Source of the DNA: Actinomycetota bacterium
GTDB lineage: Bacteria; Actinomycetota; UBA4738; JACQTL01
Length of the DNA stretch: 64,000 nucleotides
Assembly: GCA_045805265.1 (NCBI GenBank)
Contig: JBJMLO010000008.1
Location: 128,846 to 192,845 of the forward strand
Direction of reading: 5' to 3'
Positions 1 to 12,465 of the stretch are shown here, piece after piece. Positions within the stretch are counted from its first letter, which is position 1. Each line of letters starts with the position of its first letter. The translations under genes were made by a program, and so were the position numbers. The notes under the pieces are model-generated. The model saw nothing but the letters and a program-made list of their open reading frames with translations, was not told the origin of the DNA and did no database searches.

Positions 1-731
1 GCCCTGGCCGCGGCCGTGAGCCGAAGCCAGTTCCCGCCGAGCACCAGGGACTCCTGGTCCCGAGGGAGCCCGAGGGCCCGGACCTTCGCCAGCTCGACGC
101 CCGGGTGGAGCCACGGGCCGTCGGTCCCGAACAGCAGCTTGTGGGCCCCGCCCCGGCCGACGGCCTCGACGAGGAGATCGAAGCGTCGGATCCCCGAGGA
201 GTCCGCGTGCACGTTCGGGGCCCGCGCCAGGAGGTCGATCGTCTGCCGTTGCGCGCGCCAGTCGTCGGCGAAGCTCCCGAGGTGGGGGACGATGAACTGC
301 ACTTGCTCGTATTGCTGCGCCGCGAGGTCGACGGTGGCCACCTCCCCCATCACGTCGTAGAGCACCGGAAGCTCCAGCGACCCGGCCACCTCGCAGACTT
401 CACGGGTGATCCGGGAGTCGTGGCGGTGCAGCTTGATCCCGCACGCCCCCCAGCCCGTCACCGCCTCGGTCACCATCGCCCGGATCCGGCCGGCGTCCCG
501 TTTGGCGTCCACCATGGCGTAGCCGAAGAACCGGTCGGGCCGGGCGGCCACGATGCGGCCCACCTCCCGGTTGGCCCGGCGGTAGTCGGAGTTGAATGCC
601 GCGAACAGCACCGTCCGGCCGATCCCGGCCCGGGCGGCCCGCCGGAGGTAGGCCCCGAGGGGCGCGTCCGTGTCCCAGGGCCCGGTGAGGCCGTCCCCCT
701 GGCCTGCGTGACAGTGGCTGTCGACGATCAT
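1..731 (-). CDS. amidohydrolase-2 family metal-dependent hydrolase (partial; 3' end lies beyond the window start)
   Basis: Manual translation of the minus strand from the ATG at 731..729 gives MIVDSHCHAGQGDGLTGPWDTDAPLGAYLRRAARAGIGRTVLFAAFNSDYRRANREV...GIKLHRHDS...HADSSGIRRFDLLVEAV...LLFGTDGPWLHPG with no stop before nt 1. The MIVDSHCH start and the overall pattern are typical of TIM-barrel amidohydrolases. The ATG overlaps the stop of the upstream bioF-like gene (ATGA). It is absent from the ORF track because it has no stop inside the window. Confidence 0.6.
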   Translation of the reverse strand, partial: MIVDSHCHAGQGDGLTGPWDTDAPLGAYLRRAARAGIGRTVLFAAFNSDYRRANREVGRIVAARPDRFFGYAMVDAKRDAGRIRAMVTEAVTGWGACGIKLHRHDSRITREVCEVAGSLELPVLYDVMGEVATVDLAAQQYEQVQFIVPHLGSFADDWRAQRQTIDLLARAPNVHADSSGIRRFDLLVEAVGRGGAHKLLFGTDGPWLHPGVELAKVRALGLPRDQESLVLGGNWLRLTAAAR

Positions 732-1846
732 CCCGCGACCGCCCGCCTGCGGGCCCTCGGTTGGGCCGTCCGCCCGGCCCTCGGACGGGCTCGCCCCCCC
801 GAGGCCACCACGATCCCGAGCGCCTCGACCGTCCGGTCGATCTCGGCCTCGCGGTGACCGGCGGTGACGATGAACGACACCGCCAGCCCCCGGCCGCACC
901 TCGGCCGATGCAACACCGTGCGGACCCCGAGCTCGAGGAGGCCCCGGTGGGTGGCCTGGGGGTCGAGGCCGGGCTCCGACCGGACGGACTGGAGCGGGAA
1001 CAGGCCCTCCGAGAGGGGCACGCCGAGCGCCGAGGCGCCGGCGCGGAACCGGGTCACGAGCCGTGCGAGGCGCCGCCGGAGCGCGTCCCCCACCCGGGCG
1101 TTGGCTCCGAGGGCCCGGACGGCCGCGTTGAGATGGGCGTTCGAGGCCGGGCTGCAGTGGACCCGGGTCGCGCTCCTCGACTCGTATCGTCGAACCGCCG
1201 CCCGGCTGCCGGCCACGGCGGCGACCGGAACCCCCAGCCCCTTGGCGAGGGAGGCCACGACGATCAGACCCGCGTCCCCGACGCCGGTCCAGCGCGCGAC
1301 GCCGCCGCCTCCCCGGCCGTAGGGATGCCCGGGCGCCGGAGTTCCCAAGATGCCGAGGGCCTGCGTGTCGTCCACGACCACGGTGCCGGGCTGGAAGCGG
1401 GCGACCGCCAGGTAGTCACCGACGGGAGCCACGCCGCCGCAGCCGGGACACAGGCCGTCGGTCAGCACGAACACGGATCGGGGGTCGCCGGCCTCGGCCA
1501 GTGCCCGCCGAAGCGATGCCGGGTCGTGGTGTCGGAACCTCCTGACCTTCGCCCCGGCGCACCGCGCCCGTTCCGCGCCCCACGACGCGATCGGGTAGGT
1601 CCCCTCGTCCACCAGGATCGTCCTGGCCCCCATCGCGACGAACAGGTCCCAAAACGCGTGCAGAGTGGAGGGCGCCACGGTCGCCGCCGTCGTCCCGATG
1701 AGCCCGGCCACCCGGCTCCCCACCTCACGCGCCGCGGGCGCCTCGGCCAGCGCGGCCGGCCGGCCGGTCGTGAGCTCCGCCCACGGAGGCACGCGCTCGC
1801 CACCGTGCCGCATCCCGAGGTACAGGGAGGAAGTGAGGTCGATCAC
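728..1846 (-). CDS. bioF: 8-amino-7-oxononanoate synthase-like PLP-dependent alpha-oxoamine synthase (BioF family)
   Basis: Frame of track ORF 728..3283. DLTSSLYLG matches the BioF NFSSNDYLGL motif, SLAKGLG carries the PLP lysine, LVTRFRAGA matches E. coli BioF LITRFRAGV, and the C-terminal FIVTAGHREAEIDRTVEAL matches [21 protein letters not shown]. The start is set at the GTG at 1846, which overlaps the upstream gene's stop by 16 nt. No other start codon exists in this frame up to about 1980, so the N-terminus is uncertain. Confidence 0.7.
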   Translation of the reverse strand: MIDLTSSLYLGMRHGGERVPPWAELTTGRPAALAEAPAAREVGSRVAGLIGTTAATVAPSTLHAFWDLFVAMGARTILVDEGTYPIASWGAERARCAGAKVRRFRHHDPASLRRALAEAGDPRSVFVLTDGLCPGCGGVAPVGDYLAVARFQPGTVVVDDTQALGILGTPAPGHPYGRGGGGVARWTGVGDAGLIVVASLAKGLGVPVAAVAGSRAAVRRYESRSATRVHCSPASNAHLNAAVRALGANARVGDALRRRLARLVTRFRAGASALGVPLSEGLFPLQSVRSEPGLDPQATHRGLLELGVRTVLHRPRCGRGLAVSFIVTAGHREAEIDRTVEALGIVVASGGRARPRAGRTAQPRARRRAVAG

Positions 1847-1860
1847 GGCTCGCGCCGCGA

Positions 1861-3384
1861 TCAGGTCCGCACACCCACCCGCGACCCGTCGGACGAGACC
1901 TGCTTCGGGAGCCGCTTGCGGAGCAGCACGGCCGGGATCGTGGCGTTCACCTGCCCCGTCACGGTGCTCGCGGCCAGGTCCACGCCGGTCGCGGCGCGAT
2001 AGGCATGGAGGTAACCCTGGACCTCCGGGCGCCAGTACCGGGCCCAGTTCGCCGCGCTCTCGGGGTGGATCTGGCCCGTCCAGGCCCCGTATCGGATCGA
2101 GAGAAGGATCTTCTCCCCGAAGATCGCGAGGTCCCGGAAGTGCAGGATCGACGTGTCCGTCCACGCCTGCAGGCTCTTCATGGTCTCGACCGAGTCCATC
2201 CAGGGCTCCGGGTAGTCGACCATGATCCGCCGGGGCAGGAACTCCCGCATCTCCGGGCGGGCCAGGATCCACTGCTGCATCAGGAACTCCTGCCGCGCGG
2301 TCCACGGGAGGTCGCCATACTGGTTGTGGGCGCCCTGAGTCAGCTGGAGATGGACCTCCCGTAGGCCGTTCAGCACGGGGAACCCGTCGGCGACCACCGT
2401 CGTGTCGTCGTCCTCCTTGTAGAAGATCGAGCACAGCATCAGGAGCGTGTGGAACGCCTCGAGGAACCGGGACCGCGAGTCCGCGCCCCGGATCGCGGGG
2501 ATCGCCTTTCCGATGAGCTTCAGGCCGTACTCGTGGTCGTACTCGTAGGCCCGCCGGGGGATCGTGAGCCGGTGCTCCTCGTCCTGCACCCAGCCCCACA
2601 GCAGGTTGTTCAGTCCGCGGAGCGGGTCGATCTCCAGCATCGCGAGCGGGTCGCGCTCCGCGGGGCCCCGCCGGTTCTGGAACCGCCAGCTCATGGCGTT
2701 CGTGGTCTGGACCAACATGCCTTCCTCGAGCCAGTAGTTCCAGAGCAATTCGAGCAGACACGGCCGGGTGAGCTTCGAGCGGAGGATCCCGTAGCACTGG
2801 CGGGCTCCGTACGCCCTCCGGCCGTGGATCGGGACGTCGCCGAGCTTCAGCTGGACGACGTCGTGCAGGTACGGGATCGTTCGGTGCTGGCCCACGGCCC
2901 GGAGGTACCCGAGCCACTGGGAGTCGACATCGGGGGCCGACGCCGTCGGCCGGAGCAGCCGGAGCTCCTCCTCCTCGGCGACCCCCACGTCCGAGGTCAG
3001 CACTCCGAAGTCGGCGTCCTCGAACCTCGTGTTGACCGAGATGCCGAGGTTGTCGTCGGACTCGCCGATCACCACTCCGCAGTGCGCCATCATGAAGACC
3101 TCGGTGGCGATCTTCAGCAGCCGGTACGGCTCCACATCCGGGAACGGGAGCTGGCGCTTCGCCCGGATGTGGTCGAACTGTCCCTGTGCGCGCGGCGGCG
3201 GCGAGCCACACATGATCGGCTCGATGAACGCCGCGTAGTTCTCGAAGGCCAGCGCCTCCGCGCTGTTGCGGATCACGACCCACAGCGCTTGGTCCGGCGT
3301 GGGCGTCACGTCGGCCCGGCGCATCGTCACCTCCACGGGCTGCCGCGGCCGGCCGCCCGGCGCCTTGAACATCGCCTTAGTCAT
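1861..3384 (-). CDS. hypothetical protein, 507 aa, Trp/Tyr/Phe-rich globular, no family recognised
   Basis: Track ORF 1861..3966 trimmed to the internal ATG (MTKAMFKAPGG...), which is preceded by GGAGG. Composition is protein-like throughout and local GC is lower than the surroundings. The sequence upstream of this ATG in the same frame is low-complexity G/R/A. Confidence 0.7.
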   Translation of the reverse strand: MTKAMFKAPGGRPRQPVEVTMRRADVTPTPDQALWVVIRNSAEALAFENYAAFIEPIMCGSPPPRAQGQFDHIRAKRQLPFPDVEPYRLLKIATEVFMMAHCGVVIGESDDNLGISVNTRFEDADFGVLTSDVGVAEEEELRLLRPTASAPDVDSQWLGYLRAVGQHRTIPYLHDVVQLKLGDVPIHGRRAYGARQCYGILRSKLTRPCLLELLWNYWLEEGMLVQTTNAMSWRFQNRRGPAERDPLAMLEIDPLRGLNNLLWGWVQDEEHRLTIPRRAYEYDHEYGLKLIGKAIPAIRGADSRSRFLEAFHTLLMLCSIFYKEDDDTTVVADGFPVLNGLREVHLQLTQGAHNQYGDLPWTARQEFLMQQWILARPEMREFLPRRIMVDYPEPWMDSVETMKSLQAWTDTSILHFRDLAIFGEKILLSIRYGAWTGQIHPESAANWARYWRPEVQGYLHAYRAATGVDLAASTVTGQVNATIPAVLLRKRLPKQVSSDGSRVGVRT

Positions 3385-3422: not shown

Positions 3423-4508
3423 CTACTTCCGGCGCAGGTGCGCTTCGACGACGTACGTCCCGGTCGGCACCGCCCGGGCGTCGATCCGGACCCGGGACCC
3501 CACGTCCTCGAGCAGGCCGCCCGCCTCGACGGTCCACTGGAGCTCGTAGCCGGCCGGGATCGGGCGCGGGAGCCTCGCCTCGGCGAGGACCAGCCCGGCG
3601 GAGTCGGGCTCGCTGACGTCGATGCGCTCTACGAACTTCTGCTCCGCCTCGCTCAGGACCTCGAGGGTCGCTTTGTGGTGCTCCTCCGCCTCCGCGAGCG
3701 CCTCCTCCGCCAGGCGCAGCTCGGCGTGCGCCCGGCGTTCCGCCTCCGGCGCCTCGACGAGCGCCCGCTCGGCTGCCTCGAACTCCTTCCTGGCCTCCTG
3801 GATCTCGGCCGGGCTGGCCCCGGGCGCCTTCGCCTGCAGCGCGTCGTGGGCGGCGGCCAGTTGCCGGTCGAGTCGCTCCTCTCTGGCGCGCAGCCCTCTG
3901 AGCTTCGCCGGATCGGGGGCCGCGGCCTTGAGCTCCGCCTCCGCGTCCCGAAGCCCCTTCTGCCACTCGGCGAGCTCCACCAGGTGCGCGTCGAGTGCCT
4001 CCTGTTGCTCACGAAGGGTTCCCGCCGAGTTCGCGAGCGCCGTCTTCTGCGCACCGGCCGGAGCAGCGGTCGCGGCGGAGTCGGTGTGCTTCGCGGACGT
4101 GGCCACCACCGTGGTGGCCCTCTTCGCGCTCGCGTTCCACTGCCTCGCCGCCTTGACGACCGATGCGAGGGCGTCTCGGGCGCGCTTGATCGAGTCGTGC
4201 GTCGCCTCGGCCTGGGCGAGCTCCCTCGTCACGGCATCGTGAGCCTCGCGGGTCTCGTCGTATTTCGCCTGGAGGGCCTTCGCATCGGCGTCGGAGAGCT
4301 CCACGCCCTCGGCCAGGACCCGGAATCGGGCCTCCGCGTTCCTCCACTGGCGCTGAGCAGCTCCGTTGAGCCCGGTCGTCGAATCGGCCCGCTTCCGCGC
4401 CGTCGCCTGTTCCTTCCTCCGTTCCTCCAGGATCGCCTCCGCCGCCTCGACCTCGTCGATGGCGAGGGCGAGCAGCTCCTCCGGCGTCCTGGTGATCGTG
4501 CCGGCCAT
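3423..4508 (-). CDS. coiled-coil protein with a small C-terminal beta-rich domain (hypothetical)
   Basis: Track ORF 3423..4508 has an ATG with a GGAGG site 7 nt upstream. A long Ala/Glu/Arg/Lys-rich heptad-like region (AEAELKAAAP..., EARKEFEAAERALVEAPEAERRAHAELRLAEEALAEAEEHHKATLEVLSEAEQKF) is followed by ...PAGYELQWTVEAGGLLEDVGSRVRIDARAVPTGTYVVEAHLRRK. Confidence 0.75.
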   Translation of the reverse strand: MAGTITRTPEELLALAIDEVEAAEAILEERRKEQATARKRADSTTGLNGAAQRQWRNAEARFRVLAEGVELSDADAKALQAKYDETREAHDAVTRELAQAEATHDSIKRARDALASVVKAARQWNASAKRATTVVATSAKHTDSAATAAPAGAQKTALANSAGTLREQQEALDAHLVELAEWQKGLRDAEAELKAAAPDPAKLRGLRAREERLDRQLAAAHDALQAKAPGASPAEIQEARKEFEAAERALVEAPEAERRAHAELRLAEEALAEAEEHHKATLEVLSEAEQKFVERIDVSEPDSAGLVLAEARLPRPIPAGYELQWTVEAGGLLEDVGSRVRIDARAVPTGTYVVEAHLRRK

Positions 4509-4525: not shown

Positions 4526-5996
4526 TCAGGGCCGGGATCCAGCTCTCCGGCCGATCCGCACCATCGGGCGGGCCCCCGCCGGCCGCCCGCCGTGGATCCC
4601 GGGCGGCGACCTCCTGACCGTCCCCCCGCCTCCGCCCGGCGGGATCGCTCTCCGCCGGACGAAGGCACGGCCGTACGGGCCGACCAGACCCGGGGCCGGC
4701 TGAGCGCCCGCCCGCGCCGCCAGCGCGGCGTTTGCCCGGAGCGTGCTCTCGAGCGCCCAGTAGGAGATCAGCCGTCCCAGCAAGCGGTCCTCGCCCTCCG
4801 GCGTGATCAGTCCCCGGGCCCTCGCCTGGCCCACCACGGCGAAGGCGAGCGCTGGGCGGGTCCGGCGGACCGCCCGGGGGTCTGCGGTCCACTGCGCGTA
4901 CAGGCGGATCAGCCGATCCGGTGTGCGGTCCGCGGTCCGGACGGCATCGCCGACGGTGCGTCCCCGGAGCGTGCCGGGACGGTGTCCCAGGACCAGTCGG
5001 ACGAACGCCGGCATGGTCGCCAGCAGGGCCTGGAGCACCCGACGGCGCTGCGCCGGCAGTCCCTCTGCCGGATAGAACGAGGTCCAGACGCTCGCCAGAC
5101 GGCGCCACTGCCGGTCGGGGTACAGGGCTTCGCCGAACGCGCATGAGACATGGACCCGAATCCACGAGAAGGGGTGGGGGTCGTCCGCCGACATCCGGAA
5201 CACGAACGCGCGCGGCAGACTCACCAATCCGATGAGGCCCATGGTCGACGAGACGCCGACCCGGGCGATGGAGAACAGGTCCGCGACGACCTCCGAGATC
5301 CATCGCTCCCACATGCGCCATGCGAGCCGCTCCGGCCCCGCCGCCGCGAGGCCGGCCCGGTGGATCTCCGGGCGGAGCGATTCGACCAGCCCGAGGAGCG
5401 CAGCCGCTTGGTGACCGGCCTCGTGGATCAGGGAGGAGGAAATCCCGTATGTAGCCGATCATGCGCTCCCGAGGGATGCGGATGATCGACACAGGGTTCT
5501 CACCTCCCCCGGGCAGGCGGGTCCGCGCACGGCGGATGGCGCCGCCCAGCCCCCGATGCAGGTAGCACACGGCCGGTGGCGCGCGGAAGTACCCCCCGGG
5601 CAGGTCGAGGGCGTCCTGGACCGCCACGTCGAGACCCGACAGCCACAGCCCGGTCTCGTGTTCGCTTCGTTGCGTGATCGCGTCGGAGAACAGATCCAGC
5701 TGCGACAACGCCAGGTTGAACCGGAGCCGGAGGAACGTGTACCGCCGCTGCTGTTCGCTCGGCCGGGCGCCGCGCCCGTGGCCCCGCAGCCACCTGAGGT
5801 ACCGGAGGATCTGGCGTCGAAGCGTCCGCCTCCCGCCGATCAGGTACAGCTCGATGGCCGTCTGGGCCTCGGGCGACAGCGCCGCGGCGGGCAGCATCGT
5901 CTCCTGGAGGGCAAACGGCTTCACCCGATCCAGCCGAGCCAGCAGCGCGCGGGCCTCGCGCTCCAGCATCCACGTGGACAGGCCGTCGGTGGACAC
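4526..5996 (-). pseudogene. putative HExxH zinc metallopeptidase (about 490 aa) interrupted by a single frameshift near 5445-5460
   Basis: Track ORF 4521..5996 is protein-like only for its first ~185 aa (MSTDGLSTWMLEREARALL...IRIPRERMIGYI). Translating the second frame upstream of track ORF 4526..5314 gives ...SATYGISSSLIHEAGHQAAALLGLVESLRPEIHRAGLAAAGPERLAWRMWERWISEVVADLF..., which contains an HEAGH motif. The two frames abut at about 5447-5459. The combined length equals one ~490-aa protein. Confidence 0.5.
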
Positions 5997-5999
5997 GCG

Positions 6000-7166
6000 T
6001 CAGGCCCCGTAGACGATGATCCGGTTGCCCTGACGGACCCACGTGCCGGACCCCTGACCCCCGCCGGACCCGTCCGCCGGCCCCCCGCCGCCCCAGGTCG
6101 ACGGGCCGCCGTACCAGCCGCCGTACCCGGGCCCGTACCAGCGCCGGCGCGCGGACGGCGCGTACCCGTAGCCCGCGCGGCGCCGGGCGTAGGGGGCGCC
6201 CCGGTAGGCGTACCTCGGCATCCGGCGTCCGTAGCCCCGCCGGTAGGGGGCGCCGACCCGACGGGAGGGGCTCCGGTAGCCGTACCGGCCGAGCATCGCC
6301 GGCCGGCGAACGCCGACTCCCATCGGACGCCGCGGCACGACCGGACCGCCCAGGGAGCGGACCATCGACCGGTAGATGCCCGGCGCGTGGGAGCGCGCCG
6401 CTGCCGCCACCGCGGCGCGGGCCACCGCCTGGGGGCTGATGCCGGGCCGCGGCCGGGCCAGCGCCGCGTTCCTCGCCGACGCGGCAGCGAGGTTGACGAA
6501 GCGCCGGGCCACCTCGAACTCGGCCGCCTCGGCCGGCATGGCCTCCAGCTCGACCTCGAACAGGCCGCCCGCCATGGATCCGAGCTTGCTGCCGAGTGCG
6601 GTGCCGATCCCCGGCGCGATCATCGACCCGAGCGCCCCGCCCACGACCGGCAGGGCCTTCTTCGCCACGCTCTTCAGCACGCCGCCAAGGGCCCGCCCGA
6701 TCGGTGACTTGATGAAGCCGCCGACCCCGCGCGAGATGCGCTTGAAGACGTTGCCGAGGAACTGCTCGAGCTCCTGTTCGTTGTTGATCTCCAGCAGCTC
6801 GGAGGCCAGCTCGACCTCCTGGGCGCCGGAGAGCGGCGACTCCAGCTCGCCGCCGAGGATCGACCCGAGGATCCCGCCGAGGAACTGCTCGGTCTCGAAC
6901 TCGCCGCCGCCCTCGAACTCGCCTCCCTCGAACTCGCCGCCTCCCTCGAACTCGCCGCCGCCCTCGAACTCTCCTCCCTCGAACTCGCCGCCGCCCTCGA
7001 ATTCGCCGCCCTCGAACTCGCCGCCGCCCTCGAACTCGCCTCCCTCGAACTCGCCGCCTCCCTCGAACTCGCCGCCCTCGAACTCTCCTCCCTCAAACTC
7101 TCCGCCCTCGAACTCGCCTCCCTCGAACTCCCCGAATTCCGTCAGCTCCGCACCCTGCATGCCCAT
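6000..7166 (-). CDS. GEFEGG-repeat protein 1: acidic N-terminal tandem repeats, Gly-zipper-like amphipathic core, Arg/Tyr/Gly-rich C-terminal tail (hypothetical)
   Basis: Track ORF 6000..7166; the start is preceded by GGAGGAGG. The N-terminus holds about 18 copies of GEFEGG(G). The core reads ELASELLEINNEQELEQFLGNVF...ALPVVGGALGSMIAPGIGTALGSKLGSMAGGLF...EFEVARRFV...IYRS. The tail reads RRPMGVGVRRPAMLGRYGYRSPSRRVGAPYRRGYGRRMPRYAYRGAPYARRRAGYGYAPSARRRWYGPGYGGWYGG...RQGNRIIVYGA. Confidence 0.75.
   Translation of the reverse strand: MGMQGAELTEFGEFEGGEFEGGEFEGGEFEGGEFEGGGEFEGGEFEGGGEFEGGEFEGGGEFEGGEFEGGGEFEGGGEFEGGEFEGGGEFETEQFLGGILGSILGGELESPLSGAQEVELASELLEINNEQELEQFLGNVFKRISRGVGGFIKSPIGRALGGVLKSVAKKALPVVGGALGSMIAPGIGTALGSKLGSMAGGLFEVELEAMPAEAAEFEVARRFVNLAAASARNAALARPRPGISPQAVARAAVAAAARSHAPGIYRSMVRSLGGPVVPRRPMGVGVRRPAMLGRYGYRSPSRRVGAPYRRGYGRRMPRYAYRGAPYARRRAGYGYAPSARRRWYGPGYGGWYGGPSTWGGGGPADGSGGGQGSGTWVRQGNRIIVYGA
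6890..7135 (-). repeat. tandem 18-21 bp coding repeat array (about 18 units) encoding the GEFEGG(G) repeats
   Basis: The plus strand reads gaactcgccgccgccctcgaactcgcctccctc... repeated head-to-tail. Its antisense frame produces the spurious SNSPP-repeat ORF 6376..7590. Confidence 0.8.
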
Positions 7167-7195
7167 GGGCCTCCTCCTCTCTCCCGGTGACCTCG

Positions 7196-7873
7196 TCAGG
7201 AGCCGTACAGCACGATCGTTCGACCTCTCCGGATCCAGCGGCCCCCACGCGGCCAGGCGCGCGTCGAGCGACCCTGGAGCCGCGGCAGGAGACCGGGCGC
7301 GTAGATCCGCGCCGAGCTGCGGGCGGCCAGCCGCGCCACCGCGGAGGGCGGCAGGTGCGCCGGCGCGGCCACCGCCCGCCGGGCCGCGGCGCTCACGAAC
7401 CGCACGAGCTGGCGGGCGATCTCGAACTCGCGGTCCTCGCCCGAGAGGCCCTCGAGCTCCAAGCCGAGCAGCGTGCCTGCCGCTGCCCCGGCCCTGGCGC
7501 CGATGTCCCCGTACCCGCCCACGCGCTCGCCGATGGCCCGGCCCACGACCGGCAAGGCCTGCTTCGCGGCGCTCTGAAGGCTGTCCTTGAGGATGGTCCC
7601 GAGCGCCCGGCCGGTGTCCGAGCGGATGAAGTTCCCCGCGGCCCGCCCGACCGCCCCGAACACGTTCCCGAGGAACTGCTCGAGCTCCTGCTCGCTCGAC
7701 ACCTCGAGGAGCTCCGAGGCCAGCTCGATCTCCTGCATCTCGCCGAGCGGGCTCTCCAGCTCGGCGGGCGACTCGAACTCGCCGACTTCGAACTCAGAGC
7801 CCTCGAACTCGCCGGGGCCCTCGAACTCTCCGACCTGCCCGTGCTCGAGTTGCGTCCGTCCGATGTCGTGCAT
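7196..7873 (-). CDS. GEFEGG-repeat protein 2 (shorter paralog of 6000..7166)
   Basis: Track ORF 7196..7942 trimmed to the internal ATG (MHDIGRTQLEHGQVGEFEGPGEFEGSEFEVGEFES...), which has GGAGG 5 nt upstream. It shares ELASELLE..SEQELEQFLGNVF, ALPVVG, EFEIARQLV, IYAPG and the C-terminal R.GRTIVLYGS with gene 1. It lies 23 nt upstream of gene 1. Confidence 0.75.
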   Translation of the reverse strand: MHDIGRTQLEHGQVGEFEGPGEFEGSEFEVGEFESPAELESPLGEMQEIELASELLEVSSEQELEQFLGNVFGAVGRAAGNFIRSDTGRALGTILKDSLQSAAKQALPVVGRAIGERVGGYGDIGARAGAAAGTLLGLELEGLSGEDREFEIARQLVRFVSAAARRAVAAPAHLPPSAVARLAARSSARIYAPGLLPRLQGRSTRAWPRGGRWIRRGRTIVLYGS

Positions 7874-7980: not shown

Positions 7981-7997
7981 TGCACGTTCCGTGCCGG
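7981..7997 (-). promoter_or_regulatory. candidate sigma-54-type -24/-12 element (CGGCACGGAACGTGCAC on the minus strand) about 110 nt upstream of the GEFEGG-repeat operon
   Basis: The GG-N10-GC spacing is conserved, with 2 mismatches to TGGCACG-N4-TTGCA. It is 14/17 identical to the element upstream of the rpoN-like gene. It is the only such match in the 275-bp gap between the rpoN-like gene and the first GEFEGG gene. Confidence 0.4.
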
Positions 7998-8146
7998 GCT
8001 GCCTCGGCGATCGACGTCGGGGGGGGACGCGAACGACGCTTCGGCTCGGGGGATCCGCGCCTCGCCAGGACGAAGCGACCTTCGCCTCATTTGGAGCGGG
8101 CCGGCGGCGCACGACGGGGACGGGGCATTTCCGGTGACGCCTGGGC

Positions 8147-9457
8147 TCAGCGATACGTGCTGGGAAGGATCCGGAGGCGGCTGCGGTACTTGGCGACCGT
8201 CCGTCTCGCGACGCGGTGACCGGCTCGGCGGAGCCGCTCGGACAGCTCCGCGTCGCTGAGGGGCCGGTCCTCCGCGGCGATGATGTCCCGAAGGCGGGCG
8301 CGCATCCCGAGCGAGCCGTCGAAGAACGCGCCGAAGGGGACAACGCGGCGCGACGGCAGGAGGACGTACTTCTCGGCAGTCGCGCGGCTCACCGTGGATG
8401 GACTGAGACCGAGTTCCCCCGCGACATCGGCGCGGGTCAGGCGCAGGTCGGTGGCCGGATCGCCGGACATCAGGTCCGGCCGCCGGTCCGCAAGGTGCTC
8501 GGTGATCCTCCGCATCGTCGACCAGCGCTCCCGGAGCCGGGCCAGCAGGAAGTCGCCCCTCCTGACCAGCTCGCACATCTTCCGGTCGCTGCGGGCGACG
8601 CCGCGGAACGCCGGGTCCACGCGGAGGGGGAGACGTCGCTCCTCGAGGACCTCGACTTGAAACGTCCCCGGCCGGTCGGCGCGGCCCAGGACCGCGACGT
8701 CCGGCTGGACCGGCGGGGCCGTCACGCCGGCTCCCGATTCGTCGTCCACGTCGGGACGCGGGAGGAGCTCCCGCCGGATGTACTCGCGGGCGTCCGCGAC
8801 GTCGGCAACGGACACGCCGAGCAGCCGCGCGATGGAGGCCGTGGCTCCCCGGGCGAGCGACTCGAGGTGATCGGCGACGACCGCGCGGGCGACGGGATGG
8901 AAGTTGCCTTCGCCGGCCAGCCGATCGATCTGCAGCAGGAGGCAGTCTCGGAGGTCCCTCGCGGCCACGCCCACGGGACCGGTCTCCCGCAGGGTCCGGA
9001 CGACGCGCTCGACGGACGCCGGGTCTGCGCCGGCGATGCGCGCCAGCTCCTGGATCCCTTCCCTGAGGTATCCCCTGTCGTCCAGGCTGGCGACGACGGC
9101 GGCGGCGATCCCGGCGTCCCGCGCCGGCAGCACGAGCATGAGCTCCCGGAGCAGCCGCTCGGCGAACGATTCCGTCGAGACGGCCGCCGGCCCGGTCGGG
9201 GGGTCGTCCGGGTCGCGGAGACTCGCCCGGGAGGGCCGGCTCGTGCAGTAGATGCAGGGTGGGTCGGCGGGGAGTCCGCAGCCGCCGCACACGTGCACCT
9301 CGTCCTCGACCAGCGCGGGGTTCTCGGAGAGCTCGCGGGCCACGGTCTGTTCCAGCTCGATCCCCGAGAGGGCCAGGAGGCTCGCGTAGGCGACGAGCGC
9401 GGGCGAGGGAGACATCCGGAGCTCCTGCGTCACGTCGAGCGCGACCGTGAGCGACAC
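8147..9457 (-). CDS. rpoN: RNA polymerase sigma-54 factor (RpoN) homolog, 436 aa, with a CxxC...CxxC insertion in region II
   Basis: Frame of track ORF 8147..10300. The C-terminus ADVAGELGLSPSTVSRATAEKYVLLPSRRVVPFGAFFDGS...PLSDAELSERLRRAGHRVARRTVAKYRSRLRILP aligns with the E. coli sigma-54 HTH and RpoN box (ARRTVAKYRE). The core-binding region ETGPVGVAARDLRDCLLLQI is near-identical to E. coli DPVGVAARDLRDCLLIQL. Region I reads VSLTVALDVTQELRMSPSPALVAYASLLALSGIELEQTVARELSENPALVE. The start is set at the GTG 14 codons upstream of the first ATG, with AGGAGG 6 nt upstream. The insertion HVCGGCGLPADPPCIYC follows region I. Confidence 0.85.
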   Translation of the reverse strand: MSLTVALDVTQELRMSPSPALVAYASLLALSGIELEQTVARELSENPALVEDEVHVCGGCGLPADPPCIYCTSRPSRASLRDPDDPPTGPAAVSTESFAERLLRELMLVLPARDAGIAAAVVASLDDRGYLREGIQELARIAGADPASVERVVRTLRETGPVGVAARDLRDCLLLQIDRLAGEGNFHPVARAVVADHLESLARGATASIARLLGVSVADVADAREYIRRELLPRPDVDDESGAGVTAPPVQPDVAVLGRADRPGTFQVEVLEERRLPLRVDPAFRGVARSDRKMCELVRRGDFLLARLRERWSTMRRITEHLADRRPDLMSGDPATDLRLTRADVAGELGLSPSTVSRATAEKYVLLPSRRVVPFGAFFDGSLGMRARLRDIIAAEDRPLSDAELSERLRRAGHRVARRTVAKYRSRLRILPSTYR

Positions 9458-9504: not shown

Positions 9505-9521
9505 TGCAAGGTCCGTGCCAA
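9505..9521 (-). promoter_or_regulatory. canonical sigma-54 -24/-12 promoter element (TGGCACG-GACC-TTGCA) directly upstream of the rpoN-like gene
   Basis: The minus strand reads ...GGGGT TGGCACG GACC TTGCA CTGACCGTGGGTTGAGGGACACACTCTCGTCGGACAGGAGGGATTCG GTG. This is a perfect match to TGGCACG-N4-TTGCW. The GC dinucleotide lies about 48 nt upstream of the GTG start, leaving a ~35-nt leader with the AGGAGG site. Confidence 0.55.
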
Positions 9522-9607: not shown

Positions 9608-10924
9608 ATGACGCTTCGTCGCATGGTCCGGTTGGCGCTCCCGGCGATGGTGGGGAGTGCGCTCGTGCTGGGGGGTGGACTGCGGGCCTGGGCGGCCTCC
9701 GGCGACCTCGACGGCAGCTTCGGGGGTGGTGACGGGATCGCGACGCAGGACTTCGGCGGCGCAAGTGCCTCCCACGGCCATGCGGCCCTGCTGCAGCCCG
9801 ACGGCAAGATCGTCGCGGCCGGGTCGACGGTGCTGCCCTCCCGTTTCGACGCCGACTTCGGCGTCGCCAGGTTCCTGTCCAACGGAGACCCGGATCCCGC
9901 CTTCGGGACGGGCGGCGCCGTCTCGACCAACTTCCTGGGGGGGCACGATGTCGCCCGCGCGATCCTCCGGCAGAGCGACGGGAAGCTCGTGGTGGTCGGC
10001 GACGCGTGCGAGCTCGACGACTCGAGCGCCTGCGGGTTCGCTGTCGTGCGGTACCTGCCCTCCGGGAAGCGGGACCTGTCCTTCAGCGGCGATGGCCGAG
10101 AGCGCATCGAGTTCCCTGGGTACGACGACCTCACCGGCTTCAACGGCGCGCTGATGTCCGGCGGAAAGATCCTGATCGTCGGCGACGGGAACAAGACCGC
10201 CGACGGCCAGTCCGACATGGTGCTCGCCCGGCTGAACGGGAACGGCTCGCTCGACACGACGTTCAGCGGAGACGGGCGGCAGACCCTCGACCCGTCGCAC
10301 GGCGGCGACGACGGCATGTCCGGCGTTGCGATCCAGAGCGACGGCAAGATCGTGGGGTCCGGGTGGGCCTACAACGGCAGCGACGGCCGGTGGTGCGTGG
10401 TCCGCCTCAAGCCGAACGGCACCCTCGACACCACCTTCAGCGGCGACGGCGTCGTGATCAAGAACGTGGTGCCTGGCCAGGACGACTACTCCAACGACCT
10501 CATCGTGTTGCCCTCGTCGCGCATCCTGGCGATCGGCCGGGCGGTGAACGCGGTGGGGGTCTCCACCGGGGGCGACGTCGTCCTCCTCCGGCTGACGTCC
10601 GGGGGCGTCCCGGACACGTCGTTCGGCGCCGGCGGCCTGCGGAAGGCAGACTTCGGGGGCGACGAGGAGCCCGTCAGCGTCGCCCGCGACAGCACCGGGC
10701 GGATCGTGATGTCCGGCCGGGTCGGGAACGGCACGGGGTTCGGCGTGTTCCGGTTCACGGCGGCCGGAGCTCCCGACACCACCTTCGCCGGCGACGGACT
10801 GGCCGTGGAGGGCGGCGGCGCGCTGGCCGCCGGCATCGCGGTCCAGGGGAACGACCGTCCGGTGGCGGTGGGCAGCACGTCCCAGGGTCCGGGCGATCTC
10901 GAGGTCGCCAGGTTCCTGGCCTGA
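9608..10924 (+). CDS. secreted beta-propeller repeat protein (delta-60 / SBBP-like repeats, repeated LDxxFGxxG motifs)
   Basis: Track ORF 9608..10924. The ATG is preceded by GGAGGGG. The N-terminal signal peptide is MTLRRMVRLALPAMVGSALVLGGGLRAWAASG. Repeats of the form DG.LD.SF..DG...... / G.IV..G occur throughout. Confidence 0.8.
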   Translation: MTLRRMVRLALPAMVGSALVLGGGLRAWAASGDLDGSFGGGDGIATQDFGGASASHGHAALLQPDGKIVAAGSTVLPSRFDADFGVARFLSNGDPDPAFGTGGAVSTNFLGGHDVARAILRQSDGKLVVVGDACELDDSSACGFAVVRYLPSGKRDLSFSGDGRERIEFPGYDDLTGFNGALMSGGKILIVGDGNKTADGQSDMVLARLNGNGSLDTTFSGDGRQTLDPSHGGDDGMSGVAIQSDGKIVGSGWAYNGSDGRWCVVRLKPNGTLDTTFSGDGVVIKNVVPGQDDYSNDLIVLPSSRILAIGRAVNAVGVSTGGDVVLLRLTSGGVPDTSFGAGGLRKADFGGDEEPVSVARDSTGRIVMSGRVGNGTGFGVFRFTAAGAPDTTFAGDGLAVEGGGALAAGIAVQGNDRPVAVGSTSQGPGDLEVARFLA

Positions 10925-10985: not shown

Positions 10986-11288
10986 CTACCCGGGGAGGAT
11001 CTGGTCGTAGATCTCGTAATGGCCGATCGTCTGCTGGGGCTGGCCCTGGGAGACGGCCGCGCGCATCTCCGCCGTCGAGGCCTCGTAGGCCTGAATGTTT
11101 TCCATCGTGTCCCAGAACGTGAGGCCCACGAACAGCCCGGTGCTCCGGTCCGCCATCCAGTAGCCGCCGCGAAACCCCGCGCTGGACTTCAGCATCGGGC
11201 CGACGGTCGACGCCGCCTGCTTCGCGGCCGCCTCCAGCTGGTCGATCACGTCGAGTTGCCACTGGGTCCAGGTAATCCTCGCGTTCAC
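10986..11288 (-). CDS. ABM/Dabb-like small stress-responsive domain protein (100 aa)
   Basis: C-terminal part of track ORF 10986..11669. GTG start (VNARITWTQWQLDVIDQLEAAAKQAA...GYWMADRSTGLFVGLTFWDTMENIQAYEAS...) with GGAGGAAGGAG upstream. Confidence 0.65.
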   Translation of the reverse strand: MNARITWTQWQLDVIDQLEAAAKQAASTVGPMLKSSAGFRGGYWMADRSTGLFVGLTFWDTMENIQAYEASTAEMRAAVSQGQPQQTIGHYEIYDQILPG

Positions 11289-11472
11289 GGTGCGCTCCTT
11301 CCTCCGGCTCCCGCCGGCGCCGCCTGGTCGAGGGCCCGACCCTCGCGGCCGGGCACGATCGGGGATCATCCGGAACCGGCGGCCGTTGGTCAACCCGCCG
11401 GGGCCGCGACCCGCCGGGTCAAGTTCGGCCCGCCACCGGGCCGATGGTGGTTCGGTGGATAGTGTGCGGCAC

Positions 11473-12465
11473 ATGCGACGCCCGCTTCGCCACGCGGCAC
11501 TCCGGCTCCGGCTCGCGGCCGCCGTGGCGTGCATGGCCGTCGCGTTCCCGGTCGCTGCCGGCGAGCCGGTCGCGGCCGCGGCGGGGCGGCACGCGGTCCC
11601 GGGAACGAGCTGCTCGGTGTTCCCGGCCGACAACGTCTGGAACACCGACATCTCGAAGCTGCCCGTCAACCCGCTGTCGGGCGTCTGGAAGAAGACGATG
11701 CACGCGTCGTCGACCGACCTGCACCCGGACTTCGGTCCGCCCGGCTACGGCATGCCGTTCGTCGTCGTCGACGGCGACACGCCGACGCACCGGATCAAGT
11801 TCCAGTACGCCGGTGAGAGCGACGACGTCCCCTACCCGTTCGGCCCGAAGACGCCCATCGAGGGCGGGCAGAGCTCGGGCGGGGACCGCCACGCCCTGAT
11901 TGTCGACAAGGACACGTGCACGCTCTACGAGCTGTACCGGGCGTACTGGAACGGCGGCCACCCCAAGGCCGGGAGCGGCGCGGCGTTCGATCTCGGCGCC
12001 AACCATCTCCGGCCGGACGGGTGGACCTCCGCGGACGCGGCCGGCCTCCCCATCTTCCCCGGCCTGGTCCGGTTCGACGAGGTCCGGGCCGGATTCATCG
12101 GCCACGCGATCCGGTTCACCGCGGACCTCACCCGCGACTCGCACCTGTGGCCGGCGCGTCACGACGCCAGCGATCTCACGGCTCCCCGCTACCCGCCCCT
12201 GGGCGCGCGGTTCCGTCTGAAGGCGAGCTTCAGCCTCGCGGGGTTCAGCCGGAACGCGAGGGTGATCCTGCGCGCCATGAAGCACTACGGGCTGATCCTC
12301 GCCGACAACGGCTCCGACTGGTACTTCCAGGGAACTCGCGACTCCCGGTGGACCAACACCCTGCTCGACCAGCTCAAGCGGGTCCCCGCGGCGGCCTTCG
12401 TGGCCGTGGACGAGTCCGCGTGCAAGGTGGCCAACGACTCCGCCACGGCAAACTGCCCGAGCTGA
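11473..12465 (+). CDS. secreted hypothetical protein (330 aa)
   Basis: Track ORF 11290..12465 trimmed to the ATG at MRRPLRHAALRLRLAAAVACMAVAFPVAAGEP, which is a signal peptide. The remainder is a globular W/Y-rich body. Confidence 0.7.
   Translation: MRRPLRHAALRLRLAAAVACMAVAFPVAAGEPVAAAAGRHAVPGTSCSVFPADNVWNTDISKLPVNPLSGVWKKTMHASSTDLHPDFGPPGYGMPFVVVDGDTPTHRIKFQYAGESDDVPYPFGPKTPIEGGQSSGGDRHALIVDKDTCTLYELYRAYWNGGHPKAGSGAAFDLGANHLRPDGWTSADAAGLPIFPGLVRFDEVRAGFIGHAIRFTADLTRDSHLWPARHDASDLTAPRYPPLGARFRLKASFSLAGFSRNARVILRAMKHYGLILADNGSDWYFQGTRDSRWTNTLLDQLKRVPAAAFVAVDESACKVANDSATANCPS

What the first reader, a model, noticed from the sequence alone, without database searches (positions are those of the whole stretch)
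6000..7873. Tandem paralogous proteins with GEFEGG acidic repeats, a Gly-zipper amphipathic core and an Arg/Tyr/Gly-rich tail
Both proteins combine three parts that I do not recognise as any described family. The N-terminus is a perfectly regular acidic tandem array (about 18 GEFEGG units in gene 1 and about 5 degenerate units in gene 2). The core is conserved (ELASELLE..EQELEQFLGNVF ... ALPVVGgALGSMIAPGIGTALGSKLGSMAGGLF ... EFEvARrFV ... IY.pG) and looks like a membrane-interacting glycine zipper. The tail is strongly basic with RGG/RY/YG repeats and ends in a conserved GN/RRIIVYGA motif. The DNA repeat array (6890-7135) is the kind that expands and contracts. Charge-segregated repeat plus R/Y-rich architecture is reminiscent of condensate-forming or nucleic-acid/polyanion-binding proteins.
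Basis: seen in the sequence. Interest (0 to 1): 0.8.

Follow-up and report, generated by a model that had tools for sequence, protein, structure and literature searches.

The report
Unannotated sigma-54-controlled repeat-leader protein pair
The two genes are real and belong to a very large protein family that nobody has described; its members carry a variable acidic Glu-Phe repeat leader and open a conserved sigma-54-controlled operon found in many bacterial phyla, which in actinomycetes brings its own sigma-54 factor.

Summary
Gene A (6000-7166, minus strand, 388 aa) and gene B (7196-7873, minus strand, 225 aa) are real coding paralogs, 51% identical over the core. A's 126-residue tail has net charge +23. 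Both end in a motif conserved across the family, GRWxRRGxxIxLxG.

The family is huge: at least 5,000 clusters at 90% identity and 2,465 representatives at 50%, across seven or more phyla. It has no hit in Pfam, NCBIfam, PHROGs, PADLOC or PDB. The AlphaFold model of B is a confident all-helical domain with no significant structural neighbour.

The genes open a strongly conserved operon: 1-5 family genes, an unannotated HExxH peptidase, an unknown 500-700 aa protein, a BioF/Kbl-like PLP enzyme and an amidohydrolase, with an enhancer-binding protein encoded beside it on the opposite strand. A sigma-54 promoter and two palindromes precede the first family gene. Actinomycete and some Chloroflexota loci also carry an adjacent sigma-54 gene.

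My best inference (about 0.3) is that the acidic leader is a masking or recognition pro-region removed by the peptidase, releasing a cationic effector that acts on the cell envelope. The condensate idea is neither excluded nor supported. A true transmembrane glycine zipper is not supported.

The parts
6000..7166 (-). Gene A, 388 aa. Order of parts: acidic EFE-repeat leader, EQFLGGILGSILGG motif, helical core with Gly-zipper, basic R/G/Y/P tail, C-terminal motif.
6885..7130 (-). DNA repeat array encoding 15 EFE(G)2-3 units (A residues 13-94).
   Evidence: Differences between units are synonymous only.
6372..6848 (-). Conserved helical core of A (residues 107-265). It includes the Gly-zipper segment at 6558-6656.
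   Evidence: Homologous to the region of B that was modelled.
6048..6371 (-). Basic low-complexity tail of A (residues 266-373), rich in R, G, Y and P.
6003..6047 (-). C-terminal motif of A, GTWVRQGNRIIVYGA, conserved across the family.
   Evidence: Predicted to form a beta hairpin in B.
7196..7873 (-). Gene B, 225 aa. Order of parts: invariant MHDI(G/D)RTQLE start, 4 EFE units, helical core, GRWIRRGRTIVLYGS end.
7981..7996 (-). Sigma-54 type -24/-12 promoter, CGGCACGGAACGTGCA, about 108 nt before the start of B.
   Evidence: One of only two such matches in the 64 kb window.
8030..8084 (-). Two palindromes, CGAAG-N4-(C/G)TTCG, at 8030-8043 and 8071-8084. They are likely binding sites for the enhancer-binding protein.
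   Evidence: Three matches at these two sites against 0.31 expected by chance, and none elsewhere in the window.
8147..9457 (-). [quoted passage not shown]
9505..9519 (-). Sigma-54 type promoter, GGCACGGACCTTGCA, in front of the sigma-54 gene itself.
4526..5996 (-). HExxH metallopeptidase gene with no family annotation. It starts 4 nt after the stop of A. It is split between two reading frames by a 4-nt insertion at 5442-5456. The HEAGH motif lies at 5411-5425.
3423..4508 (-). Coiled-coil protein, 361 aa, specific to the actinomycete loci.
1861..3384 (-). Conserved all-alpha protein of unknown function, called 'U545' here, 507 aa.
728..1846 (-). BioF/Kbl-like PLP-dependent acyltransferase (alpha-oxoamine synthase family, divergent).
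1..731 (-). Amidohydro_2 gene, cut off by the start of the window. The enhancer-binding protein gene that follows it in related loci lies outside the window.

Best explanation
A and B are the lead products of a self-contained sigma-54 operon that has moved between phyla.

Each protein is modular:
- a disordered, strongly anionic Glu/aromatic leader of freely variable repeat number
- a roughly 160-residue all-helical domain of a fold not previously described, containing a Gly-rich hairpin
- an optional cationic R/G/Y/P tail
- a C-terminal beta-hairpin motif

Proposed mechanism (inferred, not shown):
1. The operon is silent until the cluster's enhancer-binding protein activates sigma-54 RNA polymerase at the promoter in front of B.
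2. The proteins are made as pro-forms, in which the acidic leader masks the cationic parts and/or acts as a common recognition tag.
3. The HExxH peptidase, whose gene is translationally coupled to A, removes the leader. Its active site is preceded by a conserved arginine cluster.
4. Without its leader, A goes from net charge -9 to about +23 and B from -5 to about +6. The freed basic, Gly-zipper-bearing protein then acts on an anionic target at the cell envelope (membrane or wall).
5. In many other phyla it would act together with leader-bearing peptidoglycan hydrolases and proteases encoded in the same operon.

Shown here: the genes are real; the family exists; the operon and its sigma-54 regulatory architecture are conserved; other operon products share the leader.

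Inferred: cleavage of the leader, masking, and action at the envelope.
For: Operon conservation:
- The order 'family genes, peptidase, U545, PLP enzyme' is present in 70 to 84 of 85 loci, depending on the gene, from at least seven phyla.
- The peptidase gene starts 4 nt after the stop of A.

Regulation:
- A TGGCAC-N5-xTGC promoter lies 54-127 nt before the first family gene in 23 of 39 scorable loci under a strict pattern. The background rate is 0.05 per 350 nt.
- 8 of 9 of the remaining loci that I inspected by eye also have it.
- Paired CGAAG-N4-CTTCG palindromes lie upstream of it.
- The enhancer-binding protein gene sits at the far end of the cluster in 48 loci. In Nitrosomonas this protein has no sensor domain.

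Leader:
- The leader is acidic in 99% of parsed members, with median net charge -15 and composition E 25%, G 16%, F 8%.
- Its repeat unit and length differ between lineages.

Shared leader on other operon products:
- Accessory products lack signal peptides.
- They start with acidic/aromatic leaders such as MNQEFSFETIPFEIEPEF and MSNPFEFEAEPFEFES, followed by R/P-rich stretches.
- They include PG_binding_1 with Peptidase_M74, PG_binding_1 with DUF2272, trypsin-like proteases, and a PG_binding_1 protein fused to the family core.

Peptidase:
- It has invariant or near-invariant R150, R157, R158, R160, R162, R175, R178 and R180 directly before the HExxH motif. This suits Glu-rich substrates.

Charge.
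Against: - No cleavage site is defined and no proteomic or transcript data exist.
- No secretion system, signal peptide or clear transmembrane segment is found in the conserved core. Hydropathy maxima are 1.41 for A and 0.76 for B. How an envelope target would be reached is therefore unexplained.
- The window's own locus has no peptidoglycan hydrolase.
- The roles of U545, the PLP enzyme and the amidohydrolase are not accounted for.
- The long basic tail is limited to the A-type subfamily.
- In this clade the peptidase gene is interrupted by a frame change, so peptidase supply may be limited or conditional.
Confidence: 0.3

Rival explanations
1. Self-coacervating scaffold. The acidic Phe-rich leader of one molecule pairs with the Arg/Tyr-rich tail of another through charge and cation-pi contacts. 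The helical core oligomerises. The result is an intracellular condensate or an extracellular gel that concentrates the other leader-bearing operon products.
For: - A has extreme charge segregation: -32 in the leader against +23 in the tail. It has 15 Phe in the leader and, in the tail, about 14 Tyr, several Trp and 24 Arg.
- The same leader-plus-tail layout is found in A-type orthologues from Actinomycetota, Acidobacteriota and deltaproteobacteria, with tails up to several hundred residues.
- Accessory proteins repeat the pattern of an acidic leader followed by an R-rich stretch.
Against: - Most family members have only a short region (median 18 residues) between the core and the C-terminal motif. 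This includes B and nearly all proteobacterial copies. The tail therefore cannot be the family's core function.
- The idea does not explain the dedicated peptidase.
- There are no experimental data.
Confidence: 0.15
2. PspA-like envelope-stress effector that is also a regulator. A and B are the first genes of a sigma-54 operon whose activator lacks a sensor domain. They would bind and hold that activator in check, and leave it to bind damaged membrane through the Gly-rich amphipathic hairpin.
For: - The enhancer-binding protein in Nitrosomonas nitrosa is 373 aa, with the AAA+ domain starting at about residue 40 and no receiver or sensor domain. This is the PspF layout.
- A and B are helical proteins encoded first in the operon, as pspA is.
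- There is a weak Gly-zipper resemblance.
Against: - There is no sequence or fold similarity to PspA/IM30.
- The actinomycete activators carry an extra N-terminal region of about 90 residues.
- The idea does not explain the leader, the peptidase or the enzymes in the operon.
Confidence: 0.12
3. Substrate or carrier for small-molecule or post-translational chemistry. A and B would be modified by the PLP acyltransferase, the amidohydrolase and U545, and then processed by the peptidase, in the manner of a very large ribosomal natural-product precursor. Alternatively, the enzymes make an alpha-amino-ketone signal unrelated to A and B.
For: - The PLP enzyme and Amidohydro_2 are constantly linked with the family genes.
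- The PLP enzyme is related to BioF, Kbl and CqsA-type autoinducer synthases, at 63-81 bits.
- The B-type N-terminus MHDI(D/G)RTQLE is invariant, which could be a modification or recognition site.
Against: - A and B have a confidently folded domain of about 160 residues that is conserved at 40-80% identity. This is unlike a precursor peptide.
- No known RiPP maturase family is present.
- The enzymes score far below their family cut-offs, so their chemistry is unknown.
Confidence: 0.07
4. Artefact: repeat-derived open frames in GC-rich DNA that are not genes.
For: - High-GC DNA gives many long spurious ORFs. Several overlap this region on both strands.
Against: - The GC3 frame signal supports these frames.
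- Ribosome-binding sites are present.
- Variation between repeat units is synonymous only.
- There are 2,465 representative homologues, 1,300 of them with E <= 1e-30.
- The AlphaFold model has pTM 0.69.
- Synteny is conserved across phyla.
Confidence: 0.01

Closest known systems
Glycine zipper 2TM domain proteins (Pfam PF05433, Rick_17kDa_Anti; SlyB/Pcp-type lipoproteins)
   Same: A short Gly-x3-Gly-rich hairpin, for example GGALGSMIAPGIGTALGSKLGSMAGG in A.
   Different: - The match is far below threshold (E = 0.6).
- There is no lipoprotein signal.
- Hydropathy is below the transmembrane range.
- The segment sits inside a larger soluble helical domain.
- In B it carries charged residues.
Phage-shock system (PspF activator with the pspA operon)
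   Same: A sigma-54 promoter, an activator without a sensor domain (in Nitrosomonas), and a helical protein as the first operon product.
   Different: - No homology to PspA.
- The operon additionally encodes a peptidase, a PLP enzyme and an amidohydrolase.
- The proteins carry acidic repeat leaders.
Anionic-propiece / cationic-effector precursors (defensin-type charge masking) and zymogen pro-peptides
   Same: An N-terminal anionic segment balancing a cationic part, with a dedicated protease encoded alongside.
   Different: This is purely an analogy. The proteins are much larger and contain a folded domain, and no cleavage has been shown.
Lysis cassettes and type 10 secretion (a holin plus peptidoglycan hydrolases that lack signal peptides)
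   Same: In many related loci the operon encodes PG_binding_1/M74/M15-type hydrolases that have no signal peptide.
   Different: No protein with a clear transmembrane helix is present. The hydrolases are accessory and are absent from the window's locus.
Disordered scaffold proteins of condensates (FUS-type RGG/YG regions; bacterial PopZ, CsoS2)
   Same: Low-complexity R/G/Y tail and blockwise charge segregation in the A-type subfamily.
   Different: There is no sequence relation, and the tail is not a feature of the family as a whole.
[not shown]
   Different: - Foldseek finds nothing.
- No internal duplication is detectable (hhalign probability 3%).
- The core is not basic.

Membership tests
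Glycine zipper 2TM (PF05433) | Profile match at or above the Pfam gathering score | tested here: not met
   B scores 10.5 bits (E = 0.6) against a cut-off of 24.2. A has no match.
Glycine zipper 2TM (PF05433) | Two membrane-inserting hydrophobic helices, usually after a lipoprotein signal | tested here: not met
   Kyte-Doolittle 19-residue maxima are 1.41 for A and 0.76 for B. The N-termini are acidic, with no signal peptide or lipobox.
DUF697 (the label JGI gives some members) | Pfam profile match | tested here: not met
   No DUF697 hit for A, B or the two Nitrosomonas paralogues. The precomputed Pfam column is empty for all 240 listed homologues.
PspA/IM30 | Sequence or fold similarity to PspA | tested here: not met
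   [not shown]
Sigma-54-dependent operon | A -24 GG / -12 GC promoter at the right spacing upstream of the first gene, conserved in relatives | tested here: met
   CGGCACGGAACGTGCA lies at 7981-7996. The equivalent is present in nearly all related loci.
Sigma-54-dependent operon | A cognate AAA+ enhancer-binding protein and upstream binding sites | tested here: met
   Sigma54_activat proteins are encoded at the end of the cluster in 48 loci. Paired palindromes lie upstream. The window itself ends before the activator gene.
Sigma-54-dependent operon | Transcription that depends on RpoN and the activator | not testable with these tools
   This needs expression data from mutants.
[not shown]
   [not shown]
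Holins | At least one transmembrane helix in a small protein | tested here: not met
   See the hydropathy result. The AlphaFold model is a globular helical domain.
RiPP precursor peptides | A short unfolded core peptide next to a known maturase family | tested here: not met
   The domain is folded (pTM 0.69). No YcaO, radical-SAM or Lan-type enzyme is among the conserved neighbours.
Zincin metallopeptidase (the neighbouring gene) | HExxH motif conserved in all relatives | tested here: met
   H192, E193 and H196 are nearly invariant in the alignment. There is no match to any Pfam, NCBIfam or PDB family.

The most novel reading that the evidence does not exclude
The A/B family is the signature component of an undescribed bacterial system that moves between phyla. 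In this reading, a set of pro-proteins tagged with hypervariable anionic Glu/aromatic repeat leaders is produced under a dedicated sigma-54 circuit and activated by a novel zinc peptidase. The set comprises the A/B helical effectors and, in many phyla, peptidoglycan hydrolases and proteases. In Actinomycetota and some Chloroflexota the system carries its own sigma-54 gene, which has a sigma-54-type promoter of its own in nearly all actinomycete loci. That would be a working sigma-54 regulon in a phylum reported to lack one. In one actinomycete clade, peptidase output would additionally be gated by a Tyr-to-Tyr 4-nt translational hop over a rare TTA/ATA codon.
Probability: 0.25. Interest if true: 0.85.

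Novelty: categorically new. Interest (0 to 1): 0.7.

Why it matters
- It puts a family of several thousand proteins, and a conserved six-gene operon, on the map. None of the core components (A/B, the peptidase, U545) has an annotation or a structural relative. The family occurs in environmentally important bacteria, including nitrifiers, methanotrophs and soil actinomycetes.
- It gives a concrete case of sigma-54 together with promoters for it in Actinomycetota; related loci also carry the activator, which lies outside this window. Two comparative studies state that this phylum lacks the system (PMC3162934, PMC12316311). The pattern suggests that a sigma factor can travel with the single operon it serves.
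- The hypervariable Glu-Phe leader shared by unrelated operon products points to a recognition or masking principle that can be tested directly.

Tried and rejected
Family and fold searches that found nothing:
- Pfam, NCBIfam, PHROGs and PADLOC scans of A, B and their neighbours gave no family for A, B, the peptidase or U545. The only PHROG matches were weak ones to Gly-rich parts of tape-measure proteins.
- PDB profile searches for the family, the peptidase and U545 gave nothing.
- The afdb50 library was unavailable.

Ideas tested and dropped:
- U545 structure prediction failed (pLDDT 46), so I made no fold search for it.
- Transmembrane reading of the Gly-zipper: not supported by hydropathy.

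Searches that gave no lead:
- Literature searches for the repeat, for the combination of features, and for sigma-54 in actinomycete orders found nothing relevant.
- A plasmid search found only unannotated rhizobial megaplasmid copies.
- Looking for copy-number variation in near-identical strains failed, because short-read contigs end inside the array.
Full report
**1. The observation**

The window is about 72% G+C. Two ORFs lie on the minus strand at 6000-7166 (A, 388 aa) and 7196-7873 (B, 225 aa). A longer GTG-started version of B, reaching 7942, is not used by homologues.

Several results show that both are genes:
- GC at the third codon position is 0.9-0.98 in exactly these frames.
- Each has a ribosome-binding site.
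- BLASTP of A against B gives 51% identity, E = 6e-36, over the core.

A carries 15 EFE units: 8 EFEGG, 6 EFEGGG and a terminal EFETEQ, at 6885-7130. The DNA of the units differs only at synonymous positions, which argues for selection on the peptide. B has 4 units.

Net charge along A is -32 for residues 1-92, 0 for 93-262 and +23 for 263-388. The tail is 25% G, 19% R, 11% Y and 10% P.

Three short-read assemblies of the same organism break 38-40 codons into A. The exact copy number is therefore only as good as the assembly of this contig.

**2. The family**

- A search with B alone returned 1,466 clusters at 90% identity.
- A profile of diverse cores returned 5,055.
- An exhaustive HMM search of 1.84 billion representatives at 50% identity found 2,465 with E <= 1e-3 and 1,300 with E <= 1e-30. 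Many hold 2-4 tandem copies of the domain in one polypeptide.
- Every source calls them 'hypothetical'. JGI sometimes writes 'DUF697 family', which Pfam scans do not bear out.
- Pfam, NCBIfam, PHROGs, PADLOC and a PDB sequence profile give no significant match.

A scan of one genome per species found 236 confirmed loci. They come from Actinomycetota, Chloroflexota, Acidobacteriota, Nitrospirota, Myxococcota, Desulfobacterota-type deltaproteobacteria and Pseudomonadota. Cultured carriers include Nitrosomonas nitrosa, N. mobilis, N. eutropha, Bradyrhizobium, Variovorax, Thauera and Noviherbaspirillum.

NCBI labels the window's own contig 'Actinomycetota bacterium'. Its closest relatives are labelled Streptosporangiaceae.

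**3. Anatomy conserved across the family**

B-type members start with an almost invariant MHDI(D/G)RTQLE. In every member the region before the core is acidic. Its median net charge is -15, it is negative in 99% of parsed members, and its composition is E 25%, G 16%, F 8%. It is 21-159 residues long.

Its repeat unit is homogenised separately in each lineage:
- GEFEGG in the window and in L011
- GEFEGE in L002/L004
- GEFGE in L009/L010/L015
- GEYGE in L017
- GELGE in L079
- GEYEGG in P0045

This is what expansion, contraction and concerted evolution of the array would produce.

The core is well conserved at ELELAxELLEV..E.ELEQFLG, ALPVVG, LGLELEGLS.ED.EFEVAR.FVRF and YAPGL. The C-terminal G(R)WxRRGxxIxLxG motif ends 69 of 81 parsed members.

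The long R/G/Y/P/Q tail is restricted to A-type orthologues, which occur in Actinomycetota, Acidobacteriota and some deltaproteobacteria. There it varies from tens to several hundred residues.

**4. Structure**

AlphaFold2 on a 71-sequence alignment gives B a mean pLDDT of 77.6 and a pTM of 0.69:
- Residues 41-100 and 131-200 have pLDDT of about 90 or higher.
- There are eight helices, followed by a C-terminal beta hairpin.
- The leader is disordered.
- The Gly-rich segment (about residues 101-130) has low confidence.

I treat the fold as having no established relative.

Hydropathy maxima are 1.41 for A and 0.76 for B, which does not support a transmembrane segment.

**5. Context**

tblastn of the window's neighbours against 84 related loci, and an all-against-all clustering of ORFs, show one invariant order:
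1. 1-5 family genes.
2. An HExxH protein of about 440 aa.
3. A beta-sandwich or coiled-coil element, which is variable.
4. An all-alpha protein of 500-700 aa, called 'U545' here.
5. A PLP enzyme.
6. Accessory genes, which are optional.
7. Amidohydro_2.
8. An enhancer-binding protein, encoded on the opposite strand.

Details of these genes:
- The PLP enzyme is a divergent BioF/Kbl-type alpha-oxoamine synthase, at 81 bits to bioF and 63 bits to the CqsA-type model. Both scores are far below the family cut-offs.
- The peptidase and U545 have no Pfam, NCBIfam or PDB relatives.
- The U545 model was unusable (pLDDT 46).
- The peptidase gene starts 4 nt after the stop of A.
- The peptidase has a conserved run of arginines directly before the HExxH motif.
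- In the window the operon runs from 9457 down to the window's start, and the activator gene lies beyond the edge.

**6. Regulation**

In the whole 64 kb window the pattern GGCACG-N5-TGCW occurs twice: at 7981-7995, about 108 nt before B, and at 9505-9519, before the sigma-54 gene. The palindrome CGAAG-N4-STTCG occurs only at 8030-8043 and 8071-8084, giving 3 matches against 0.31 expected.

The same layout, two palindromes followed by TGGCAC-N5-xTGC 54-127 nt before the first family gene, recurs in loci from all phyla:
- 23 of 39 loci match under a strict pattern, against a background of 0.05 per 350 nt.
- 8 of 9 further loci have it on inspection.

The Nitrosomonas activator is 373 aa with no sensor domain, like PspF. 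The actinomycete activators have about 90 extra N-terminal residues.

An adjacent sigma-54 gene is present in all 11 loci labelled Actinomycetota and in 3 of 8 labelled Chloroflexota. It is absent from all the other loci, whose hosts have a resident rpoN. In 13 of 14 actinomycete-type loci (the 11 labelled ones plus three unlabelled relatives) the sigma-54 gene is itself preceded by a sigma-54-type promoter. The window's protein has all three RpoN domains (AID 29.7 bits, CBD 113 bits, DBD 77.9 bits) and the RpoN box.

Two comparative studies state that Actinobacteria/Actinomycetota lack sigma-54 (PMC3162934; PMC12316311).

**7. Accessory products share the leader**

In many non-actinomycete loci, genes between the PLP enzyme and the amidohydrolase encode:
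- PG_binding_1 with Peptidase_M74
- PG_binding_1 (two copies) with DUF2272
- trypsin-like proteases
- an M20 peptidase
- a 647-aa protein combining PG_binding_1, a weak GIY-YIG-like region and a copy of the A/B core

Many of the peptidoglycan-binding, fusion and trypsin-like products have no signal peptide. Instead they begin with acidic/aromatic leaders, for example MNQEFSFETIPFEIEPEF, MSNPFEFEAEPFEFES and MPQLIFRPEPFEGYVEFDEWE. R/P-rich stretches usually follow.

The acidic aromatic leader is therefore a property of the operon's products in general, not only of A and B.

**8. Interpretation**

Shown here:
- real, selected genes
- a very large unannotated family with a confident helical fold that has no known relative
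- a conserved operon with a conserved sigma-54 control region
- a hypervariable acidic leader shared with other operon products

Inferred: the leader is a masking and/or recognition pro-region, and the co-encoded arginine-lined zinc peptidase removes it. This would turn A from net -9 to about +23 and B from -5 to about +6, and release proteins that act on anionic envelope targets together with the hydrolases. I put this at about 0.3.

Its main weaknesses are these:
- There is no export route.
- There is no transmembrane segment.
- There are no hydrolases in the window's own locus.
- U545 and the two enzymes have no explained role.

Rivals:
- A self-coacervating scaffold (0.15). It is attractive for A-type proteins, but the tail is not family-wide.
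- A PspA-like effector and regulator (0.12). The regulatory layout is similar, but there is no homology.
- A modified carrier or precursor (0.07).
- An artefact (0.01).

**9. Comparison with known systems and novelty**

Nothing I could search places A/B, the peptidase or U545 in a described family. The Gly-zipper, PspA, holin, histone/cyclin and RiPP-precursor memberships were each tested and not met. Only the mode of regulation (sigma-54 with an enhancer-binding protein) is of a known kind.

I therefore rate the system as lying outside the known kinds, and I stress that its function is inferred only from anatomy and context.

Noticed in passing
window 8147-9457 (-), promoters at 9505-9519 and 7981-7996: A complete RpoN gene (AID, CBD, DBD domains and the RpoN box) sits in a contig labelled Actinomycetota, a phylum reported to lack sigma-54 (PMC3162934, PMC12316311). 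It has a sigma-54-type promoter in front of itself. An adjacent sigma-54 gene is found in all 11 related loci labelled Actinomycetota and in 3 of 8 labelled Chloroflexota, and in none from phyla that have a resident rpoN.
   Followed up: partly
window 5442-5456 (-), within the peptidase gene 4526-5996: The HExxH peptidase gene changes reading frame at a 4-nt insertion, GGC TAC A TAC GGG. The same insertion (GGC TAC/TAT T TAC GGG) is present in L002, L003, L004, L005 and L007, whereas 75 other loci are in frame. The zero-frame codon at the site is ATA or TTA, which I expect to be rare in such GC-rich DNA (not measured here). A Tyr codon is recreated 4 nt downstream. There is no start codon before HExxH in the second frame, and both halves stay conserved (73-88% identity). 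This is a candidate programmed +1 shift or Tyr-to-Tyr 4-nt hop. Caveat: some of these assemblies show other indel errors, for example gene B in L004 and the sigma-54 gene in L002. L007 looks like a short-read assembly, judging by its contig name (k141_), and it and the window agree with the other assemblies.
   Followed up: partly
L022 15337-17280 and 17277-18677; L026 16551-17345; L023 8383-9774; L069 8050-9135: Accessory operon products lack signal peptides and start with acidic/aromatic leaders of the form FExEPFE, followed by R/P-rich stretches. They include PG_binding_1 with M74 or DUF2272, trypsin-like proteases, and a PG_binding_1 protein fused to the family core. The leaders echo those of A and B.
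   Followed up: partly
L085 3490-3603, L086 3042-3161, L087 987-1106: All three short-read contigs that carry an identical gene B end 38-40 codons into gene A. The repeat array therefore breaks short-read assembly, and copy number cannot be compared between samples.
   Followed up: yes
window 1861-3384 (-): 'U545' is a highly conserved all-alpha protein, with at least 4,774 clusters at 90% identity and many invariant residues (motifs include FYKEDDDTT, GAHNQ(Y/F)GDLP and YPEPWMD). It has no Pfam, NCBIfam or PDB relative. AlphaFold failed on it (pLDDT 46). Proteobacterial versions carry an N-terminal CarboxypepD_reg-like beta-sandwich.
   Followed up: partly
L001 10001-11173; P0064; many hits: In Competibacteraceae and many metagenomic proteins, two to four copies of the A/B core are fused in one polypeptide. 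The A/B gene pair can therefore also exist as a single chain.
   Followed up: no
L005 about 11000-11700 (A-type orthologue): In one orthologue, a 26-residue block combining the EF repeat with the amphipathic motif (GEFEGDLEGEQFLGDIVGSVLGGEAE) is itself repeated five times. The EQFLG..LG..LGGE motif is thus part of the expandable region.
   Followed up: no
window 9608-10924 (+): A DUF5122 beta-propeller repeat protein is encoded on the opposite strand, beyond the upstream end of the sigma-54 gene. It is not conserved next to the cluster in related loci.
   Followed up: no
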